Below are positions 1,605 through 33,652 of a stretch of DNA of 42,305 nt, one piece after another (the first letter of the stretch is position 1; every line of letters begins with the position of its first letter). The translations under genes and the position numbers were made by a program. The notes beneath the pieces were generated by a model. That model was given only the letters and a program-made list of their open reading frames with translations, was not told the DNA's origin and did no database searches. This DNA is from a virus: the UHGV virus genome UHGV-0118819; one strand, written 5' to 3'.

Positions 1605-1789
1605 ACGCCACAATTCAAACGATACCAGAGCTTCTTATCCAGACACGAGGCAATCAGACCGAAGTGGCGAGGATGCTTTCCTGCGCAAGAGGAACAGTGC
1701 TCAAGTACAACCGAGACAGCAAAGGCGAGCGTCACGTAATAGTTAACGGCGTCCTGATGGTCAAACAGGGTAAGAGGGGAAGACGATGA
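1601..1789 (+). CDS. ninH: NinH-like protein
   Basis: MNATIQTIPELLIQTRGNQTEVARMLSCARGTVLKYNRD... close to recalled lambda NinH; HTH-like. Confidence 0.8.
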   Translation: MNATIQTIPELLIQTRGNQTEVARMLSCARGTVLKYNRDSKGERHVIVNGVLMVKQGKRGRR

Positions 1790-2274
1790 GCATAAGAGAA
1801 CTAAACCTCACCAAAGAACAGCAAGATTGGCTGAATGGATGGCTTGAACTATGGGGCGCATGGGTTTATTCAGGTCGCCTGGAAAAGCGCATGAGCAGCG
1901 TAATAGCGAAGTTCATGGAGAGCGTAGAGCCGGGAAGAGTTATGACAAGGCCAATGTGCAATGATGATGATGGAATGTTGATTTCTCAGGTCGTCGATTC
2001 CGTCATGTACATTGACAAGAAAGCCTTTGGCATCCTCCTCAGCTACTACGCCCATGGATCTTCCAAGCACGCCATTGCATCTTACTATCATCGCGTCGCA
2101 AGACCTCGCAAGATGTTATGCCGGGGCGGCGGGCGCATTCAAAAACCATCGCTCGCAACCTGTCGACGGGAAGTTGACGAAATCCTTAATGCCTCGTTGT
2201 TTATGATTTACCCGGTTCTGGATAGTGCGTTTAAAAATCGGAAACGTGTAGAGAAAATTAAACATGTAGCATAG
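1786..2274 (+). CDS. Q: late gene antiterminator Q-like protein
   Basis: 162-aa ORF at the end of the nin region, immediately upstream of a TTGACA promoter, tRNAs and the lysis genes; assigned by position. Confidence 0.65.
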   Translation: MSIRELNLTKEQQDWLNGWLELWGAWVYSGRLEKRMSSVIAKFMESVEPGRVMTRPMCNDDDGMLISQVVDSVMYIDKKAFGILLSYYAHGSSKHAIASYYHRVARPRKMLCRGGGRIQKPSLATCRREVDEILNASLFMIYPVLDSAFKNRKRVEKIKHVA

Positions 2275-2280
2275 AACGTG

Positions 2281-2311
2281 TTGACATCATTGAACAAATG
2301 AGCAACAATAT
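2281..2311 (+). promoter_or_regulatory. candidate late promoter (pR'-like)
   Basis: Perfect -35 TTGACA at 2281-2286 directly after Q; -10 is weak (AACAAT/CAATAT). Confidence 0.3.
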
Positions 2312-2322
2312 TCGCATAAGCT

Positions 2323-2361
2323 GCCGTTAGTGACTCTTAAGTTGCAACGGTGGCTTTTTTT
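2323..2361 (+). terminator. candidate tR'-like terminator/short leader RNA end
   Basis: GCCGTT...AACGGT stem followed by GGC and a 7-T run (2355-2361). Confidence 0.35.
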
Positions 2362-2365
2362 ATTT

Positions 2366-2440
2366 GGGTCAGTCGTATAAAGGTCATTACGGAAGGCTGT
2401 TAACCTTCTTATCGTGGTTCGAGTCCACGCTGTCCCGCCA
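2366..2440 (+). tRNA. tRNA-like gene, anticodon GUU (Asn); possibly degenerate
   Basis: Hand-folded cloverleaf: perfect anticodon stem GAAGG/CCTTC, loop CTGTTAA, T-arm CGTGG-TTCGAGT-CCACG, 3' CCA; one mismatch each in acceptor and D stems. Confidence 0.5.
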
Positions 2441-2445
2441 AACAT

Positions 2446-2521
2446 GCTGGTTTAGCTCCAATGGTAGAGCAGTCGCCTTGTAAGCGAATGGGTAGCGGTT
2501 CAAGTCCGTTAACCAGCACCA
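2446..2521 (+). tRNA. tRNA-Thr (anticodon UGU)
   Basis: Hand-folded 76-nt cloverleaf: 7-bp acceptor stem GCTGGTT/AACCAGC, D-arm GCTC..GAGC with GG, anticodon loop CTTGTAA, T-loop TTCAAGT, encoded CCA. Confidence 0.8.
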
Positions 2522-2743
2522 TAACTGAGCCGTAGCCACTGGCTATCCTGAATTCATCATTGATAGTTGCGCTGCGGCCTTCTACACATGACCTTCGTGA
2601 AAGCGGGTGGCAGGAGGTTGCGCTAACAACCTCACGCCGTTTTGCCCGTGCATATCGGTCACGAACAAATCTGATTACTAAACACAGTAGCCTGGATTTG
2701 TTCTATCAGTAACCGACCATATTCCTAATTAAATAGAGCAAAT

Positions 2744-2757
2744 CCCCTTATTGGGGG
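2744..2757 (+). promoter_or_regulatory. sdi-like stem-loop upstream of S dual start
   Basis: CCCC-TTATT-GGGG hairpin immediately 5' of ATG AAG ATG (Met1/Met3), as in lambda S. Confidence 0.5.
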
Positions 2758-2763
2758 TAAGAC

Positions 2764-3087
2764 ATGAAGATGCCAGAAAAAAATGACCTGTTAGCCGCCA
2801 TTCTCGCGGCAAAGGAACAAGGCATCGGGGCAATCCTTGCGTTTGCAATGGCGTACCTTCGCGGCAGATATAATGGCGGTGCGTTTACAAAAACAGTAAT
2901 CGACGCAACGATGTGCGCCATTATCGCCTGGTTCATTCGTGACCTTCTCGACTTCGCCGGACTAAGTAGCAATCTCGCTTATATAACGAGCGTGTTTATC
3001 GGCTACATCGGTACTGACTCGATTGGTTCGCTTATCAAGCGCTTCGCTGCTAAAAAAGCCGGAGTAGAAGATGGTGGAAATCAATAA
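2764..3087 (+). CDS. S: holin S (class I, dual-start antiholin/holin)
   Basis: 107 aa, [39 protein letters not shown]... essentially the recalled lambda S sequence. Confidence 0.95.
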
Positions 3088-3547
3088 TCAACGTAAGGCG
3101 TTCCTCGATATGCTGGCGTGGTCAGAGGGAACTGATAACGGACGTCAGAAAACCAGAAATCATGGTTATGACGTCATTGTTGGCGGAGAGCTATTCACTG
3201 ATTACTCAGATCACCCTCGCAAACTTGTCACGCTAAACCCCAAACTCAAATCAACAGCTGCCGGACGCTACCAGCTTCTTTCCCGTTGGTGGGATGCCTA
3301 TCGTAAGCAGCTTGGCCTGAAAGACTTCTCTCCCAAAAGCCAGGACGCTGTGGCATTGCAGCAGATTAAAGAGCGTGGCGCTTTACCGATGATTGACCGC
3401 GGTGATATTCGTCAGGCTATTGATCGTTGCAGTAATATTTGGGCTTCATTGCCCGGTGCTGGTTACGGTCAGTATGAACACAAGATCGATAGTCTGATTG
3501 CCAAATTCAAAGAAGCTGGCGGGGTGGTTAATGAAACTTCGCTATAA
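3071..3547 (+). CDS. R: endolysin R (lytic transglycosylase)
   Basis: 158 aa, [42 protein letters not shown]... matches recalled lambda R. Confidence 0.95.
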
Positions 3548-3992
3548 GCTGGTTATTTCTGCTTTCCTCCTGACTTTATTCGGTTCTCTCGTCTGGTCAG
3601 CTAATCATTACCACAATAAAGCCATTGAATACAAAAAACAGCGCGACGAAAACGCTATGGCATTAGATTCGGCTATGGCGACGATCTCTGATATGCAGAA
3701 GCGTCAACGTGACGTAGCAGAACTCGATGCCAGATATACAAAGGAGCTTGCTGATGCTAACGCGACTATCGAAAGCCTCCGTGCTGATGTTTCTGCTGGT
3801 CGTAAGCGCCTGCAAGTCGCCGCCACCTGTGCAAAGTCAACGACCGGAGCCAGCAGCATGGGCGATGGAGAAAGCCCAGGACTTACAGCAGATGCTGAAC
3901 TCAATTATTACCGTCTCCGAAGTGGAATCGACAAGATAACCGCGCAGGTTAACTACCTGCAGGAGTACATCAGGACTCAGTGCCTGAAATAA
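3531..3992 (+). CDS. Rz: i-spanin Rz
   Basis: 153 aa from ATG 3531 ([14 protein letters not shown]... N-terminal TM, coiled-coil body); overlaps R end as in lambda. Confidence 0.9.
   Translation: MKLRYKLVISAFLLTLFGSLVWSANHYHNKAIEYKKQRDENAMALDSAMATISDMQKRQRDVAELDARYTKELADANATIESLRADVSAGRKRLQVAATCAKSTTGASSMGDGESPGLTADAELNYYRLRSGIDKITAQVNYLQEYIRTQCLK
3754..3939 (+). CDS. Rz1: o-spanin Rz1 (lipoprotein, embedded in Rz in +1 frame)
   Basis: AGGAG RBS 7 nt upstream of ATG 3754; MLTRLSKASVLMFLLVVSAC lipobox then proline-rich segment. Confidence 0.75.
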   Translation: MLTRLSKASVLMFLLVVSACKSPPPVQSQRPEPAAWAMEKAQDLQQMLNSIITVSEVESTR

Positions 3993-4049: not shown

Positions 4050-4190
4050 GTCCGCAGTAAACGCGCATCTCACGCGCATATTAACGAGAGCCTTTCAGTA
4101 AGCGAGCCTGAGAAATGCCGTTATAGGTGGCGACCTCTCTCGGGCGGCTTTTCTGTGAGACAGGCTCACTTTCTAAAAGGTAAAGACGCT

Positions 4191-4709
4191 ATGAATCATC
4201 AATTGGCTAATCTCGATTTCCGGGACATGGTGGTTGTTTCTGGTGATCGCGTGATCACAACCTCCCGCAAGGTAGCAGCTTACTTCGACAAGCAGCATCA
4301 CCACATCATTCAGAAAATCGAAAAGCTAGACTGTTCGGATGAATTTCTAACCAGCAACTTTTCGCGGGTTACCTATGAACACAAGGGTAATCAGTATGTT
4401 GAATATGAAATTTCCAAAGACGGCGCGATGTACATCATCATGTCGTTTACCGGCAAAAAAGCTGCCGCCATCAAAGAGGCGTTTATCAAAGCATTTAATT
4501 GGATGCGTGACAGGCTGATGGAGTTGGCTCACTCATACCAAAGAGAGCACAACGAGTTAATGCTGGAGTTCATGAAGGAAAAGGATGTTGCCAGTATGTC
4601 AGGACGCTTGCTGAACCGCTGGGGCAGGATCAAAAAACCGCAACTCATAGCAAGAATCGAAAGGCTTGAGCAGCAGGCGCAAATATCGATCCCCGGACTG
4701 CCAAAGTGA
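4191..4709 (+). CDS. Rha-family phage regulatory protein
   Basis: MNHQLANLDFRDMVVVSGDRVITTSRKVAAYFDKQHHHIIQKIEKL... typical Rha N-terminal domain; alternative GTG start at 4155. Confidence 0.75.
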   Translation: MNHQLANLDFRDMVVVSGDRVITTSRKVAAYFDKQHHHIIQKIEKLDCSDEFLTSNFSRVTYEHKGNQYVEYEISKDGAMYIIMSFTGKKAAAIKEAFIKAFNWMRDRLMELAHSYQREHNELMLEFMKEKDVASMSGRLLNRWGRIKKPQLIARIERLEQQAQISIPGLPK

Positions 4710-4717
4710 CCATTCCA

Positions 4718-4739
4718 AAGCCCATCTACTGGTGGGCTT
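4718..4739 (+). promoter_or_regulatory. perfect 7-bp stem hairpin after Rha stop (no U-tract)
   Basis: AAGCCCA-tctactgg-TGGGCTT. Confidence 0.35.
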
Positions 4740-5131
4740 GATAATGAAACCGTGATTTACATCCCTCACAATCCAGGTATGTAAAAGCTGGATCATGCGA
4801 GAACGGATTTAACTAAATCTGTGCGCCACCAGTTAACGGCAGTACCACGAAACAACCCAAGCCAGTAAGTGGGGAAATAACACTGGCAGCCACTGAAAGA
4901 TGAACCTCCTGCATTATGGCAAAAAAGATTCTTTGTGGTGGCGGACTGATGGAAAGACATCGGTTATTGCAGAGACCATTCAATGAGTGGTCTCGACAAT
5001 GGCTTATACCCTACACGGGATAACTTAACTGATATCCCCACAAGCGGATAAAGAGGTCCCTCAATGTCAGGAATCTACTTTTAGTCCTAGTAATGATGAA
5101 CTAGATATCAGTTGAGTCGCTTGGGTGGTGA

Positions 5132-5368
5132 TTACGATTCTGCTTCAAACTCAGAAATTAGTTGATGAACACGTTCAGTATATGATGGGTTAGAACCTAG
5201 AAACTCTTCCACTGTCTGAATGGTTTCATCACCCTCCCATTCAAAATGGCTCACAGGTGACGAATGACCAGCCCTGACTTGGTAGGAGCCATTGTCCAAT
5301 TTGTCCAGGAATATATAAGTTTCATTATCATGACCTGTATTTCGGTAAAAAATTTGCTTTGAGTTCAT
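5132..5368 (-). CDS. hypothetical acidic protein (78 aa), AT-rich, divergent from terS
   Basis: ORF with GAGGA RBS; only 24 bp from terS start on opposite strand; looks lower in GC than neighbours. Confidence 0.6.
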   Translation of the reverse strand: MNSKQIFYRNTGHDNETYIFLDKLDNGSYQVRAGHSSPVSHFEWEGDETIQTVEEFLGSNPSYTERVHQLISEFEAES

Positions 5369-5392
5369 TAAAGAAATCCTCTAGAGAAAACT

Positions 5393-5944
5393 ATGGCACT
5401 CACCGACAAACAAGAGATGTTCTGTCGCGAGTACCTCATCGATTTAAACGCCACACAAGCGGCTATTCGGGCGGGGTACAGCGCAAAGACAGCTAACCGT
5501 ACCGCATCCGAAAACCTGTCAAAACCTGACATACAATTCAGAATCGCCGAACTGAAAGCGCAACGCAATGATCTTGTTGGTATTAATGCAGAATATGTAC
5601 TTAATCGCCTTATTGAAATCGACCAGATGGATGTGCTCGACATTCTCCTGCAAAACGGTGAGCTAAAGCCCATTAAAGACTGGCCTAAGGTATGGCGCAC
5701 AACGCTATCAGGAATGGATGTCGTGGAGATAGTATCCGCAGATAGCGCCGCACTTCTGAAGAAAATCAAATGGCCTGATAAGGTTAAAAACCTTGAGTTG
5801 CTCGGGCGTCATGTTTCTGTTCAGGCGTTTAAAGACAATGTCAAAAATGAAGTGACTGGTGCTGACGGAGGACCAGTCAGAACAGAAATTACCAACTTAA
5901 CGCCGGAGCAGGCTGCAGAAGCGTATAAAAAAATGATGGGCTAA
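5393..5944 (+). CDS. terminase small subunit
   Basis: [30 protein letters not shown]... characteristic small-terminase N-terminal DNA-binding motif. Confidence 0.85.
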
Positions 5945-32274: not shown

Positions 32275-32763
32275 TTATTTGATAAGAAGTGAAGGTTTCC
32301 CAACCTTAAGTTGAGCACCGGGAATATTTATTCCTGCTTTTAGTTGGTGCTTGATTGCCAGTTTGTCGGCTTTAATTGTCGTTTCAAACTCAACGTATTC
32401 AGGAGGAAGGGCGCTTGAGTCGATGATTTCTACAGTTTCTGAGGGTTTGCGGATTGTTACCTGGTGAATACCTGCTCGAATATTTTTCTTGCCAACCATT
32501 TCAAGCGATGACGCTATATATGATTTGATGCTGTCAATCTTATTTTGAATTACTGCGGCTCGCTCATTCAGTGACTTTGCCTCTTCCTTGAGGCGTTCGG
32601 CATAACCAGATTCATTTTTAATGACGGAAAGAAGTTGTTCTATTTTATCGGTAAATTCTCCTTCCATGCCTTCTATTGTGTCAGCAATCATCTCTGGTTC
32701 TAAATCTGAATCCATCAATTTTGCGTATTCATTGGCAATTTCATATAGTTTGCTCACTGGCAA
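32275..32763 (-). CDS. Gp157-like/Gam-like protein associated with RecT (hypothetical)
   Basis: 162-aa ORF immediately downstream of RecT, partially overlapping. Confidence 0.45.
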   Translation of the reverse strand: MPVSKLYEIANEYAKLMDSDLEPEMIADTIEGMEGEFTDKIEQLLSVIKNESGYAERLKEEAKSLNERAAVIQNKIDSIKSYIASSLEMVGKKNIRAGIHQVTIRKPSETVEIIDSSALPPEYVEFETTIKADKLAIKHQLKAGINIPGAQLKVGKPSLLIK

Positions 32764-33652
32764 CCTCCAGTTTCGCTTTGCATTCTATGTAAATGGCTTG
32801 TATGTTCTGCTGCAATTTCATTCCAGATGTCAGGCGATATGCTTCTGCAAAATATCTCTTCAAATCATCCATGTTTTCAGCCTGAGCCATTTCATCACAA
32901 AGAAGTTGTGCTTTATCCGTTATTCCCTGCTGGCGTTTCCGTTCATCTTCGCGGATATCTTCCTCTGATTTGTGCGGCATAACTGGTTCAGTCCATACAC
33001 CTTCTTCTTCGTTTAGTACGTGAATAGCACTATCAAGACGTGATGCCTTAGGCCAATACTTGCTTGCACGCTTTACGACCGTCTTTCGCGCCATCTCATT
33101 CCAGTGATTTACCCATGGTCCTTTATCGCTGAATGCCGCCTTGCTTGTTTTCCTTACAGCCTCAATTTCAGCCAGACTCATCTCTTCCGTTAGATAATCA
33201 CCTGCTGGCGTCTTAACTGTGCAGTAAACACCAACGATATCGCCACGATCACCGAAGGCGTTGTATTTATGGGTTGGTGCTTTATCAAGTCCGTTTGACT
33301 CATAAGTATCGTTAGCATGAACAAGCTTTGCCTGACCCCATGAGATAACACCAGACTCCATTGCAATATGTAGCAATCCCATATAGCTGATATCAAGGCA
33401 CACCATGCCGTCGCGCGGAACCAGATAAGCCAGTTTGCTAGCCGGGTTTAAGGTGATGCCGATCGCCGCAACATTGATGATGGCGTTCTGTGCGCTGGTT
33501 GGATTTGCCAGTGCCGTTTTAGCCAGGTAATCATTTTTCTGGAAATACTGAATTGCAAACTGGCTTTCCTTAGCCCATGTCACCGTCTGTTCAGTCAATG
33601 CTCCGCAGAATAACTGCTCTTGCTGTTTAACGAATTCAACGATATTGCTCAT
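32741..33652 (-). CDS. recT: RecT-family single-strand annealing recombinase
   Basis: 303 aa with LAYLVPRDG and typical RecT core. Confidence 0.85.
   Translation of the reverse strand: MSNIVEFVKQQEQLFCGALTEQTVTWAKESQFAIQYFQKNDYLAKTALANPTSAQNAIINVAAIGITLNPASKLAYLVPRDGMVCLDISYMGLLHIAMESGVISWGQAKLVHANDTYESNGLDKAPTHKYNAFGDRGDIVGVYCTVKTPAGDYLTEEMSLAEIEAVRKTSKAAFSDKGPWVNHWNEMARKTVVKRASKYWPKASRLDSAIHVLNEEEGVWTEPVMPHKSEEDIREDERKRQQGITDKAQLLCDEMAQAENMDDLKRYFAEAYRLTSGMKLQQNIQAIYIECKAKLEVASEQTI

What the first reader, a model, noticed from the sequence alone, without database searches (positions are those of the whole stretch)
2366..2521. Two tRNA genes in the late leader between Q and the holin, one possibly degenerate
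A clean tRNA-Thr(UGU) (2446-2521) and an upstream tRNA-like sequence with anticodon GUU (2366-2440) that has mismatches in the acceptor and D stems lie between the Q-proximal promoter and S. This is the position where Stx phages carry ileZ-argN-argO, but no toxin cargo follows here. Phage tRNAs in this slot may tune late-gene translation.
Basis: seen in the sequence. Interest (0 to 1): 0.4.

Follow-up and report, generated by a model that had tools for sequence, protein, structure and literature searches.

The report
Phage 21-type tRNA-Asn/tRNA-Thr late-leader pair
Both tRNA genes are real and look functional, but they are the already-described phage 21/Sf6/HK446 tRNA-Asn/tRNA-Thr pair at the start of the late operon, and published experiments show this exact tRNA-Thr replaces a host tRNA that the rival phage P2's Old nuclease destroys.

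Summary
ARAGORN and Rfam call tRNA-Asn(GUU) at 2366-2440 and tRNA-Thr(UGU) at 2446-2521. They lie after a Q21-type antiterminator gene, the PR' promoter and the tR' terminator, and 242 bp before holin S.

The "degenerate" reading is not supported. In 19 distinct homologues, five tRNA-Asn stem pairs change on both sides. The U4·U69 and U13·U22 mismatches are kept in almost all variants. Both genes encode CCA and carry the expected identity nucleotides.

The 156-bp pair is 100% identical to phage 21. It is annotated in Sf6 and discussed for SfI and phage L. It occurs in 369 of 5426 complete E. coli genomes.

Two 2025-26 studies tested this same tRNA-Thr sequence, taken from phage 21 and from HK446. 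It resists P2 Old, a Toprim nuclease that cuts host tRNA-ThrU, and it restores cell viability or phage plating. Host tRNA-Asn(GUU) is also cut by Old and by PARIS AriB. The phage tRNA-Asn lacks their reported recognition motifs but has not been tested.

Codon supplementation remains plausible: ACA is 2.6-fold enriched in late genes.

Verdict: already known; modest interest. The one new, testable idea is that tRNA-Asn is a second nuclease-resistant replacement tRNA.

The parts
1786..2274 (+). Late-gene antiterminator Q, phage 21 type (context; controls read-through into the tRNAs)
   Evidence: 162 aa. 95% identical to phage 21 Q. PHROG 943, Q-like antiterminator, E 9e-90. Matches solved Q21 structures 6P18 and 6JNX at E ~1e-107.
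2281..2309 (+). PR' late promoter (TTGACA, 17 nt spacer, AACAAT)
   Evidence: Consensus scan gives 10 of 12 matches. Aligns with the annotated phage 21 promoter and the Sf6 PR'.
2316..2365 (+). Short leader RNA with the tR' intrinsic terminator (hairpin 2318-2356, U-run from 2355); equivalent to phage 21 'aRNA'
   Evidence: RNA fold -20.2 kcal/mol, z = -6.1, 0 of 200 shuffles as stable, followed by U7. Corresponds to AJ237660 misc_RNA 4652-4701 and to the Sf6 qut/tR' annotation.
2366..2440 (+). tRNA-Asn(GUU) gene with encoded CCA, discriminator G73, and conserved U4.U69 and U13.U22 mismatches
   Evidence: ARAGORN. Rfam 55.3 bits. Cloverleaf-like minimum-energy fold. Covariation at pairs 5-68, 6-67, 7-66, 28-42 and 29-41. 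Identical in phage 21, Sf6 and HK446.
2441..2445 (+). 5-nt spacer AACAT between the two tRNAs
   Evidence: Read from the sequence. HK446 has AATAT here.
2446..2521 (+). tRNA-Thr(UGU) gene with encoded CCA, discriminator A73 and a conserved G27.A43 mismatch that leaves a 4-bp anticodon stem. Same sequence as 'tRNA-Thr21' and the HK446 tRNA-Thr
   Evidence: ARAGORN. Rfam 61.5 bits. Eight stem pairs change on both sides. 100% identical to phage 21 and HK446, whose tRNA-Thr was tested experimentally.
2522..2763 (+). Untranslated stretch between the tRNAs and holin S
   Evidence: Contains only a 50-aa TTG ORF with no Pfam hit and no Rfam match. About 97% identical in Sf6, HK446 and many lambdoid phages, where no gene is annotated.
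2764..3992 (+). Lysis cassette S (2764-3087), R (3071-3547) and Rz (3498-3992): the first protein-coding genes of the late operon
   Evidence: Pfam PF05106 holin and PF03245 Rz. Matches Sf6 genes 60-63.

Best explanation
These are two functional phage tRNA genes, the known phage 21/Sf6/HK446 tRNA-Asn(GUU)-tRNA-Thr(UGU) cassette. They sit at the very start of the late operon, directly after the tR' terminator.

Inferred expression route: PR' transcripts stop at tR' unless Q21-type antitermination lets RNA polymerase read through. The two tRNAs are then cut out of the late transcript by host RNase P and 3' processing enzymes. CCA is already encoded.

Shown by others for the identical tRNA-Thr sequence: it decodes ACA and resists cleavage by the P2 prophage Old Toprim nuclease. 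[quoted passage not shown] The phage copy therefore replaces the destroyed host tRNA. Resistance comes from loss of the paired CNG motifs together with a shortened anticodon stem, which here is the conserved G27.A43 mismatch.

Inferred: tRNA-Asn does the same job for host tRNA-Asn(GUU), a secondary target of both P2 Old and PARIS AriB. It lacks both CNG motifs, U39 and U16.

The same tRNAs also raise decoding capacity for ACA. Every one of the 29 late genes contains ACA, and the host serves it with one low-abundance tRNA. The anti-nuclease and codon-supply roles are therefore two sides of one mechanism.
For: Gene status. Covariation: (cells paired 90% and 95%, against 33-49% for slid controls; 0 of 500 shuffles reach the covariation score). 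Identity nucleotides, read from the sequence: Asn has G34U35U36, G73 and CCA; Thr has G1-C72, C2-G71, G35U36, A73 and CCA. Identity to known elements: 100% to phage 21, identical tRNAs in HK446, annotated in Sf6 with PR', qut and tR', and described for SfI, Sf6, ST64T, PS3 and p21 (PMC3636060). Q-dependence: only PR' is predicted upstream, the terminator is strong, and Q is the 21 type. Function of Thr: PMC12445682 reports that phage 21 tRNA-Thr21 'also protected against P2-OLD', that it is not cleaved without ATP, that site 1 is almost completely resistant, and that it has a shorter anticodon stem plus C28U/G42A. The 2026 preprint reports that HK446 tRNA-Thr(UGU) restores plating of Old-sensitive HK97 and HK542 to near wild type. 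Targets: Old also cleaves host Asn(GUU); AriB cleaves Lys(UUU), Thr(UGU) and Asn(GUU), with determinants U39, N41 and U16. Motif table: host thrU and asnT have paired CNG and U36AAU39, while the window's Thr and Asn have neither and both have A16. The T5 tRNA-Thr and tRNA-Asn validated against PARIS also carry U39G. Other cargo in the same slot includes Gly(UCC), another top Old target. P1 carries the same Asn|Thr tandem. Codon demand: ACA is 13.6 per 1000 in late genes against 5.3 per 1000 in the host sample, odds ratio 2.6, p = 5e-10, and 29 of 29 late genes contain ACA.
Against: All rescue experiments expressed the tRNA from plasmids. Nobody has shown that the native late-operon copy protects a phage. 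Thr alone only partly suppresses Old toxicity and did not rescue lambda. HK446 also has a protein inhibitor, Oad2, that by itself explains its escape from Old. The main PARIS target, tRNA-Lys(UUU), is absent from the window and from all 124 slot arrays examined, so the pair cannot by itself bypass B185-type PARIS. The phage tRNA-Asn has never been tested. It is only 63% identical to asnT, so differences at three or four named positions are expected by chance. Klebsiella-type Asn variants regain the CNG motif. The tRNAs are made late, after Q, whereas Old can be triggered early. Q and the nin genes themselves contain ACA codons. This phage has a Mu-Gam-like protein, not lambda Gam, so it is not known to trigger Old. 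Phe(GAA) and Arg(UCU) cargo in sister arrays are not reported prime Old or AriB targets.
Confidence: 0.65

Rival explanations
1. Pure codon supplementation. The tRNAs only top up the host pool for codons the phage over-uses (ACA, AAU/AAC) during the burst of late protein synthesis. Nuclease resistance is incidental.
For: ACA is 2.6-fold enriched and Asn codons 1.3-fold enriched in late genes against a 15,070-codon host sample. Other cargo in this slot (Gly-UCC, Arg-UCU, and Ile/Arg in 933W) matches the codons most over-represented in the phage: GGA odds ratio 2.3, AGA 5.2, AGG 4.0, ATA 2.5. The SfI paper found ACA at 17.3% against 7.1%. The phage L paper noted 24 of 25 Asn codons as AAC in its capsid gene.
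Against: The major head gene here uses ACA once in 21 Thr codons, so the most expressed gene avoids the codon. Asn codons are not rare and E. coli K-12 has four tRNA-Asn genes (asnT, U, V, W; my own knowledge). The SfI authors found no Asn bias and called its role unclear. Overexpressed host tRNA-ThrU gave little or no protection while phage versions did, so sequence and not only dosage matters. The conserved G27.A43 mismatch is unexplained by dosage.
Confidence: 0.25
2. The upstream tRNA-Asn is a decaying pseudogene or tRNA-like relic, and only tRNA-Thr is functional.
For: It has two non-standard pairs (U4.U69, U13.U22), a 4-nt variable loop and a lower Rfam score than Thr. Its minimum-energy fold has low ensemble frequency and z = -1.7. 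Real decay does occur in this slot: the phage L second tRNA and the L037/L040 and L012 chimeras.
Against: It scores 55 bits, almost twice the gathering score. Five stem pairs show compensatory double changes across genera with 100% pairing in the anticodon stem. The mismatches are conserved rather than accumulating (17/19 and 19/19). The anticodon loop, T-loop, G18G19, G73 and CCA are intact. It is first in every array in which a tRNA was called (122 of 124), even when the partner tRNAs differ.
Confidence: 0.04
3. The tRNAs act mainly as RNA-processing signals. RNase P and RNase E cleavage would detach the late mRNA from its leader. Alternatively they act as lysogenic-conversion genes expressed by tR' read-through to benefit the host.
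For: tRNA-Asn begins immediately after the U-run of tR', and the cassette junction lies at the T-run in phages with unrelated leaders. PR' is constitutively active in lysogens of related phages (abstract of PMC7547250).
Against: Lambda and many lambdoid phages express the same S-R-Rz genes without any tRNA in the leader. Conserved anticodons, identity elements and encoded CCA are not needed for a processing signal. The terminator is strong. No data bear on expression in lysogens.
Confidence: 0.05

Closest known systems
Phage 21 / Sf6 / HK446 / SfI / BTP1 late-leader tRNA-Asn(GUU)-tRNA-Thr(UGU) pair
   Same: The 156 bp are 100% identical to phage 21. Both tRNAs are identical in HK446 and in the Sf6 alignment. 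Same order, same 5-nt spacing, same position after tR' and before S. Q, PR' and the leader are also phage 21 type.
   Different: Nothing in the tRNAs themselves. The rest of the phage is different: a myovirus-type late region about 96% identical to vB_EcoM-611R5, where Sf6 is P22-like and HK446 is HK97-like. This shows the cassette travels as a mosaic module.
Stx-phage 933W ileZ-argN-argO tRNA cluster
   Same: Same slot: Q, PR', qut, terminator, tRNAs, then downstream late genes. Same presumed Q-dependent expression.
   Different: Different tRNAs (Ile, Arg, Arg) with no sequence homology. 933W has an annotated putative tRNA promoter (pT) and stx cargo after the tRNAs. Here no separate promoter is predicted and no cargo follows.
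Nuclease-resistant phage tRNAs of T5/T4/Bas phages (anti-PARIS, anti-Old, anti-retron Eco7)
   Same: They have the same anticodons as the targeted host tRNAs but altered cleavage-site nucleotides. T5 Thr and Asn carry U39G and weakened anticodon stems, like the window's U39G (Thr) and U39C (Asn). They rescue by replacing the host tRNA, not by inhibiting the nuclease.
   Different: Those are lytic phages with large tRNA sets (25 annotated tRNA features in the fetched T5 region) expressed early or continuously. Here a temperate phage carries only two, placed behind the late terminator, and lacks tRNA-Lys(UUU).
Phage P1 tRNA-Asn / tRNA-Thr tandem in the ban operon
   Same: Same two isoacceptors in the same order with a 2-nt spacer, in a temperate coliphage. 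P1 Thr is 83% identical to the window's Thr.
   Different: P1 Asn is only 59% identical. The pair sits in a C1-repressed early operon, not the late leader. P1 Thr keeps the paired CNG motif and a full 5-bp stem, and P1 Asn keeps U39.

Membership tests
Canonical bacterial elongator tRNA (Rfam RF00005) | Covariance-model score above the curated gathering score; accepted by a dedicated tRNA finder | tested here: met
   55.3 bits (Asn) and 61.5 bits (Thr) against 29. ARAGORN calls both.
Canonical bacterial elongator tRNA (Rfam RF00005) | Cloverleaf maintained by compensatory base changes among homologues | tested here: met
   Asn: pairs 5-68, 6-67, 7-66, 28-42 and 29-41 change on both sides; covariation score 0.198 against 0.066 for shuffles (0 of 500 reach it) and at most 0.064 for slid controls. 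Thr: 8 such pairs, 0.178 against 0.091. Caveat: the search patterns fixed part of the D arm and the anticodon loop.
Canonical bacterial elongator tRNA (Rfam RF00005) | Conserved tertiary nucleotides (U8, A14, G18G19, the T-loop) and a 3' CCA | tested here: met
   Both have U8, G18G19, GGTTC(G/A)A(G)T T-loops and encoded CCA. One exception: tRNA-Thr has C14 instead of A14.
Canonical bacterial elongator tRNA (Rfam RF00005) | Transcribed, processed and aminoacylated in cells | not testable with these tools
   The literature gives functional evidence only for the identical tRNA-Thr expressed from plasmids, where rescue by the library tRNA-Thr6 needed the UGU anticodon. There is nothing for tRNA-Asn.
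tRNA-Asn identity set for E. coli AsnRS (G34, U35, U36, G73; from my knowledge of the identity literature) | Anticodon GUU and discriminator G73 | tested here: met
   The sequence reads CU-GUU-AA in the loop and ...CUGUCCC-G-CCA at the 3' end. The loop and G73 are the same as in asnT.
tRNA-Thr identity set for E. coli ThrRS (G1-C72, C2-G71, G35, U36; from my knowledge of the identity literature) | First two acceptor pairs and anticodon positions 35-36 | tested here: met
   GCUGGUU pairs with AACCAGC, giving G1-C72 and C2-G71, both invariant in 20 variants. The anticodon is UGU and the discriminator is A73, as in thrU.
Phage 21-type late-leader tRNA cassette | Sequence identity to the phage 21/Sf6 tRNA pair, and location between tR' and the lysis genes | tested here: met
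   100% identity over 156 bp to AJ237660. Matches the Sf6 annotation PR'-qut-tR'-tRNA-Asn-tRNA-Thr-holin. Present in 369 of 5426 E. coli genomes.
Nuclease-resistant counter-defence phage tRNA (anti-Old / anti-PARIS) | Same anticodon as a host tRNA that the nuclease depletes | tested here: met
   Thr(UGU) is the prime target of Old and a prime target of AriB. Asn(GUU) is a secondary target of both.
Nuclease-resistant counter-defence phage tRNA (anti-Old / anti-PARIS) | Recognition or cleavage-site nucleotides altered relative to the host tRNA | tested here: met
   Thr has no CNG at 28-30 or 40-42, has G27.A43, U39G, A41G and A16. Asn has no CNG (A28-U42), U39C, C41U and A16. The hosts thrU and asnT have all the motifs. 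This is weak on its own because the tRNAs are 63-72% identical overall.
Nuclease-resistant counter-defence phage tRNA (anti-Old / anti-PARIS) | Demonstrated resistance to cleavage and rescue of cells or phage | not testable with these tools
   Reported in the literature for the identical tRNA-Thr: tRNA-Thr21 and the HK446 Thr. Not reported for the tRNA-Asn, nor for either gene in its native late-operon context.
Stx-phage ileZ-argN-argO cluster | Homologous tRNA genes (Ile, Arg, Arg) in the Q-proximal slot | tested here: not met
   The slot is the same but the tRNA species differ. The similarity search with the pair listed no Stx-phage tRNA hits among the rows shown.

The most novel reading that the evidence does not exclude
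The tRNA-Asn is not a spare or decaying gene. It would be the second half of a two-tRNA cassette that temperate enterobacterial phages (phage 21-like lambdoids, and independently P1) carry against Toprim anticodon-stem nucleases from rival P2/P4-type elements. P2 Old and PARIS AriB both hit host Thr(UGU) and Asn(GUU). On this reading the tRNA-Asn anticodon-stem changes (A28-U42 and C39, removing CNG and UAAU) make it cleavage-resistant, and its invariant U4.U69 and U13.U22 mismatches may contribute. Placing the pair at the head of the late operon would protect late protein synthesis, because all 29 late genes contain ACA and Asn codons. The slot would then be a general anti-tRNase cargo site that also captures Gly(UCC) from the host thrU-glyT operon.
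Probability: 0.35. Interest if true: 0.5.

Novelty: already known. Interest (0 to 1): 0.3.

Why it matters
The genes themselves are ordinary, long-annotated features. They appear in the 2004 Sf6 genome record, in the phage 21 sequence, and in about 7% of complete E. coli genomes. Their interest comes from recent work showing that phage tRNAs are weapons in conflicts between mobile elements, and this exact tRNA-Thr is one of the tested examples against P2 Old.

This analysis adds three points. First, the partner tRNA-Asn, whose role published papers call unclear, is under clear structural selection. Second, it corresponds to a host tRNA that both known Toprim tRNases cut. Third, it has lost their recognition motifs. 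Together these give a cheap, direct experiment.

If confirmed, it would explain why Asn and Thr travel together in lambdoid phages and in P1. It would also identify the Q-proximal tRNA slot as an anti-defence cargo site and not simply a codon-usage patch.

Tried and rejected
1. Degenerate tRNA-Asn: rejected on predictor scores and covariation.

2. A further RNA element in 2200-2800: an Rfam search at E<=1 found only the two tRNAs.

3. A separate tRNA promoter like pT of 933W: the consensus scan found only PR' and a weak site inside Q. A non-consensus promoter is not excluded.

4. Hidden cargo between the tRNAs and S or after Rz: the 50-aa ORF at 2560-2712 has no Pfam hit. ORF 4155-4709 is a Rha-like regulator. 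The small minus-strand ORFs in 4599-5769 have no hits.

5. The phage encoding its own tRNA-targeting or other defence system: none of ten unassigned ORFs (nine early-region, one late) hit PADLOC.

6. A lambda-Gam-type trigger of Old in this phage: only a Mu-Gam-like protein and a RecT-like protein were found, so sensitivity of this phage to Old is unknown.

7. A tRNA-Lys(UUU) that would complete an anti-PARIS set: absent from the window and from 124 slot arrays.

8. A literature search for expression data on BTP1 tRNAs returned unrelated papers. I found no northern or tRNA-seq data for the native cassette.

9. tRNAs as an attP or integration remnant: rejected because both are full-length with CCA and lie 25 kb from the integrase gene (27336-28496).

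10. A genome-wide co-occurrence test of the cassette with P2 old or PARIS was not attempted, because the search tools list too few rows to cross-tabulate.

Full report
**1. Observation**

Rfam's tRNA model scores them 55.3 and 61.5 bits against a gathering score of 29. A permissive search of 2200-2800 finds nothing else.

It also shows one mismatch in the 'clean' second tRNA, G27.A43 at the top of the anticodon stem.

Both genes encode their 3' CCA. The Asn gene has G34U35U36 and discriminator G73. The Thr gene has G1-C72, C2-G71, G35U36 and A73. To my knowledge these are the identity sets used by E. coli AsnRS and ThrRS.

**2. Context**

- The ORF at 1786-2274 is a Q antiterminator of the phage 21 type. 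It is 95% identical to phage 21 Q, hits PHROG 943 and matches the solved Q21 structures 6P18 and 6JNX.
- A TTGACA/17 nt/AACAAT promoter lies at 2281-2309.
- The 50 nt at 2316-2365 fold into a -20.2 kcal/mol hairpin (z = -6.1) followed by seven U. This corresponds to the annotated 'aRNA' of phage 21 and the qut/tR' of Sf6.
- tRNA-Asn starts immediately after the U-run.
- After tRNA-Thr come 242 untranslated bases, then holin S, R and Rz.
- No promoter other than PR' is predicted upstream of the tRNAs.

The expected expression route is therefore Q-dependent read-through of tR', followed by host processing. This is inferred, not shown.

**3. What it is**

The 156-bp pair is 100% identical to classical phage 21 (AJ237660). 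Both tRNAs are identical in HK446 and in the Sf6 alignment. The Sf6 genome record annotates PR', qut, tR', tRNA-Asn and tRNA-Thr as 'similar to phage 21'.

- 177 phage records match the region.
- 369 of 5426 complete E. coli genomes carry the pair, and it is annotated as tRNA-Thr/tRNA-Asn in nearly all the listed hits.
- The SfI genome paper states that the Asn(GUU)/Thr(UGU) tandem downstream of Q also occurs in Sf6, ST64T, PS3 and p21. It found an ACA bias and calls the role of tRNA-Asn unclear (PMC3636060).
- The phage L paper says it is unknown whether the tRNAs are excised from late mRNA (PMC8022706).

The feature is therefore already known.

**4. Is the tRNA-Asn degenerate?**

I collected homologues from 119 viral contigs and 8 genome contigs. 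These gave 19 distinct tRNA-Asn sequences and 20 distinct tRNA-Thr sequences.

For tRNA-Asn:
- Pairs 5-68, 6-67, 7-66, 28-42 and 29-41 change on both sides while staying paired.
- The anticodon stem is 100% paired.
- The covariation score is 0.198, against 0.066 for shuffles (0 of 500 reach it) and at most 0.064 for slid controls.
- U4.U69 is retained in 17 of 19 sequences. The other two have G.U or U.G at that position.
- U13.U22 is retained in 19 of 19. This includes loci found with a pattern that did not fix the D arm.

tRNA-Thr has eight pairs with double changes, and G27.A43 is present in 19 of 20 sequences.

The mismatches are therefore conserved features of functional genes. Real decay does occur elsewhere in this slot. 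The phage L second 'tRNA-Leu(UAA)' is a shortened derivative of the Thr gene. ARAGORN rejects it and it does not fold as a cloverleaf.

**5. The slot is a cargo site**

In 124 arrays tRNA-Asn is first in every array where a tRNA was called. It is followed by:
- Thr in 97 arrays;
- Gly(UCC) in 7;
- Phe-Thr-Arg(UCU) in 6;
- other combinations in the remainder.

In HK446 the cassette follows a lambda-type Q and leader, and homology to the window begins exactly at the terminator's T-run. In Mixta and Phytobacter it follows other terminators. The cassette therefore moves as a mosaic module.

**6. Function: codon supply**

- Using 29 late ORFs (7067 codons) and 43 annotated host genes (15,070 codons), ACA is 13.6 against 5.3 per 1000 (odds ratio 2.6, p = 5e-10).
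- Asn codons are 48.5 against 37.4 per 1000.
- All 29 late genes contain ACA.
- GGA, AGA, AGG and ATA are also enriched, matching the Gly(UCC), Arg(UCU) and Ile cargo seen elsewhere.
- Against this, the major head gene uses ACA once in 21 Thr codons, and Asn codons are not rare.

**7. Function: counter-defence**

Govande et al. 2025 (PMC12445682) showed how the P2 prophage Old nuclease kills during P2-lambda interference. [quoted passage not shown]
- Phage tRNA-Thr(UGU) genes rescue the cells.
- 'tRNA-Thr21' of phage 21 'also protected against P2-OLD' and resists cleavage.
- It has a shorter anticodon stem plus C28U/G42A.
- That sequence is the one in this window, and the shorter stem is the conserved G27.A43.

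A 2026 preprint (10.64898/2026.07.10.737580) adds further data:
- The HK446 tRNA-Thr(UGU), again the same sequence, restores plating of Old-sensitive HK97 and HK542.
- Gly(UCC) is another strongly depleted Old target.
- Thr alone does not rescue lambda.
- HK446 also has a protein inhibitor, Oad2.

Host tRNA-Asn(GUU) is cleaved by Old more slowly than ThrU.

Belukhina et al. 2025 (PMC12409363) show that PARIS AriB cleaves E. coli Lys(UUU), Thr(UGU) and Asn(GUU) between nucleotides 40 and 41.
- The determinants are U36AAU39, N41 and U16.
- T5 Lys, Thr and Asn variants together neutralise PARIS.

My motif table shows:
- Host thrU and asnT carry both CNG motifs, U39 and U16.
- The window's Thr has none of them (GUCGC/GCGAA, UAAGCG, A16).
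- The window's Asn also has none of them (GAAGG/CCUUC, UAACCU, A16).
- T5 Thr and Asn also have U39G.
- P1 carries the same Asn|Thr tandem.

**8. Weighing the evidence**

- That both are functional tRNA genes of the known cassette is nearly certain.
- That this tRNA-Thr can act as an Old-resistant replacement is published experimental fact. However, it comes from plasmid expression, so its native role from the late operon is inferred.
- That tRNA-Asn is a second resistant replacement is my inference. It rests on target identity and on motif loss. Motif loss is weak evidence because the phage and host tRNAs are only 63% identical and Klebsiella-type variants regain CNG.
- No tRNA-Lys accompanies the pair, so it cannot defeat B185-type PARIS alone.
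- This phage has a Mu-Gam-like protein rather than lambda Gam, so whether it triggers Old is unknown.
- Codon supply and nuclease replacement are not exclusive. Single-copy tRNAs that decode rare codons are also the easiest to deplete.

**9. Verdict**

The feature is already known. Interest is modest, with one concrete untested hypothesis about tRNA-Asn.

Noticed in passing
L108:~231-384 of the extracted stretch; also L012, L033, L079, L081, L090, L099, L129: In the 'Asn|Gly(UCC)' and 'Asn|Thr|Gly' arrays the second tRNA is a chimera. The 5' part of the phage tRNA-Thr is joined to the 3' part of host thrU, followed by 'TAT' and a glyT copy (98.7% identical to E. coli glyT; tyrU is missing). 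This looks like capture of host tRNA genes by recombination inside tRNA-Thr. In L012 the chimera has since decayed.
   Followed up: partly
L037 and L040 (tRNA-Asn position): The first two-thirds of tRNA-Asn is fused at the T-loop to the 3' end of the cargo tRNA-Gly (…GGTTCGATTCCCGCTACCCGCTCCA). This is a deletion chimera that ARAGORN no longer calls.
   Followed up: partly
L002:781-852 (Salmonella phage L cII-101): The gene annotated tRNA-Leu(TAA) is a 4-nt-shorter, roughly 80-89% identical derivative of the tRNA-Thr gene. ARAGORN rejects it and its minimum-energy fold is not a cloverleaf, so it is probably a decayed or anticodon-shifted copy.
   Followed up: partly
window 2459 (position 14 of tRNA-Thr): tRNA-Thr has C14 (T14 in a few variants) where nearly all tRNAs have A14. 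Both phage tRNAs have A16 where the host tRNAs have U16, a position reported to matter for AriB binding.
   Followed up: no
L135:1425-1578 (phage P1): [quoted passage not shown] P1 Thr is 83% identical to the window's Thr, and P1 Asn only 59% identical to the window's Asn.
   Followed up: partly
L003:701-1020 and related Klebsiella-type loci: Klebsiella phages carry an expanded array, Asn|Phe(GAA)|Thr|Arg(UCU), sometimes with Gly(UCC), in the same Q-proximal slot. Their tRNA-Asn has C28-G42, which restores the CNG motif.
   Followed up: partly
window 2316-2365: The roughly 50-nt terminated PR' leader matches the phage 21 'aRNA'. In Stx phages the equivalent terminated transcript is a regulatory sRNA (StxS, PMC7547250). 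Whether this leader has a target was not examined.
   Followed up: no
L126 and L130: The identical E. coli-phage leader and tRNA cassette appears on contigs binned as Segatella copri and Collinsella metagenome-assembled genomes. This is most likely binning contamination and not a host-range signal.
   Followed up: no
window 3071-3547, 4155-4709, 32275-33652: The R-position ORF has no Pfam hit at E<=1e-3, although Sf6 annotates its counterpart as an endolysin. A Rha-like regulator ORF sits between Rz and small terminase. The recombination module is Mu-Gam-like plus RecT-like rather than lambda Gam/Bet/Exo.
   Followed up: no
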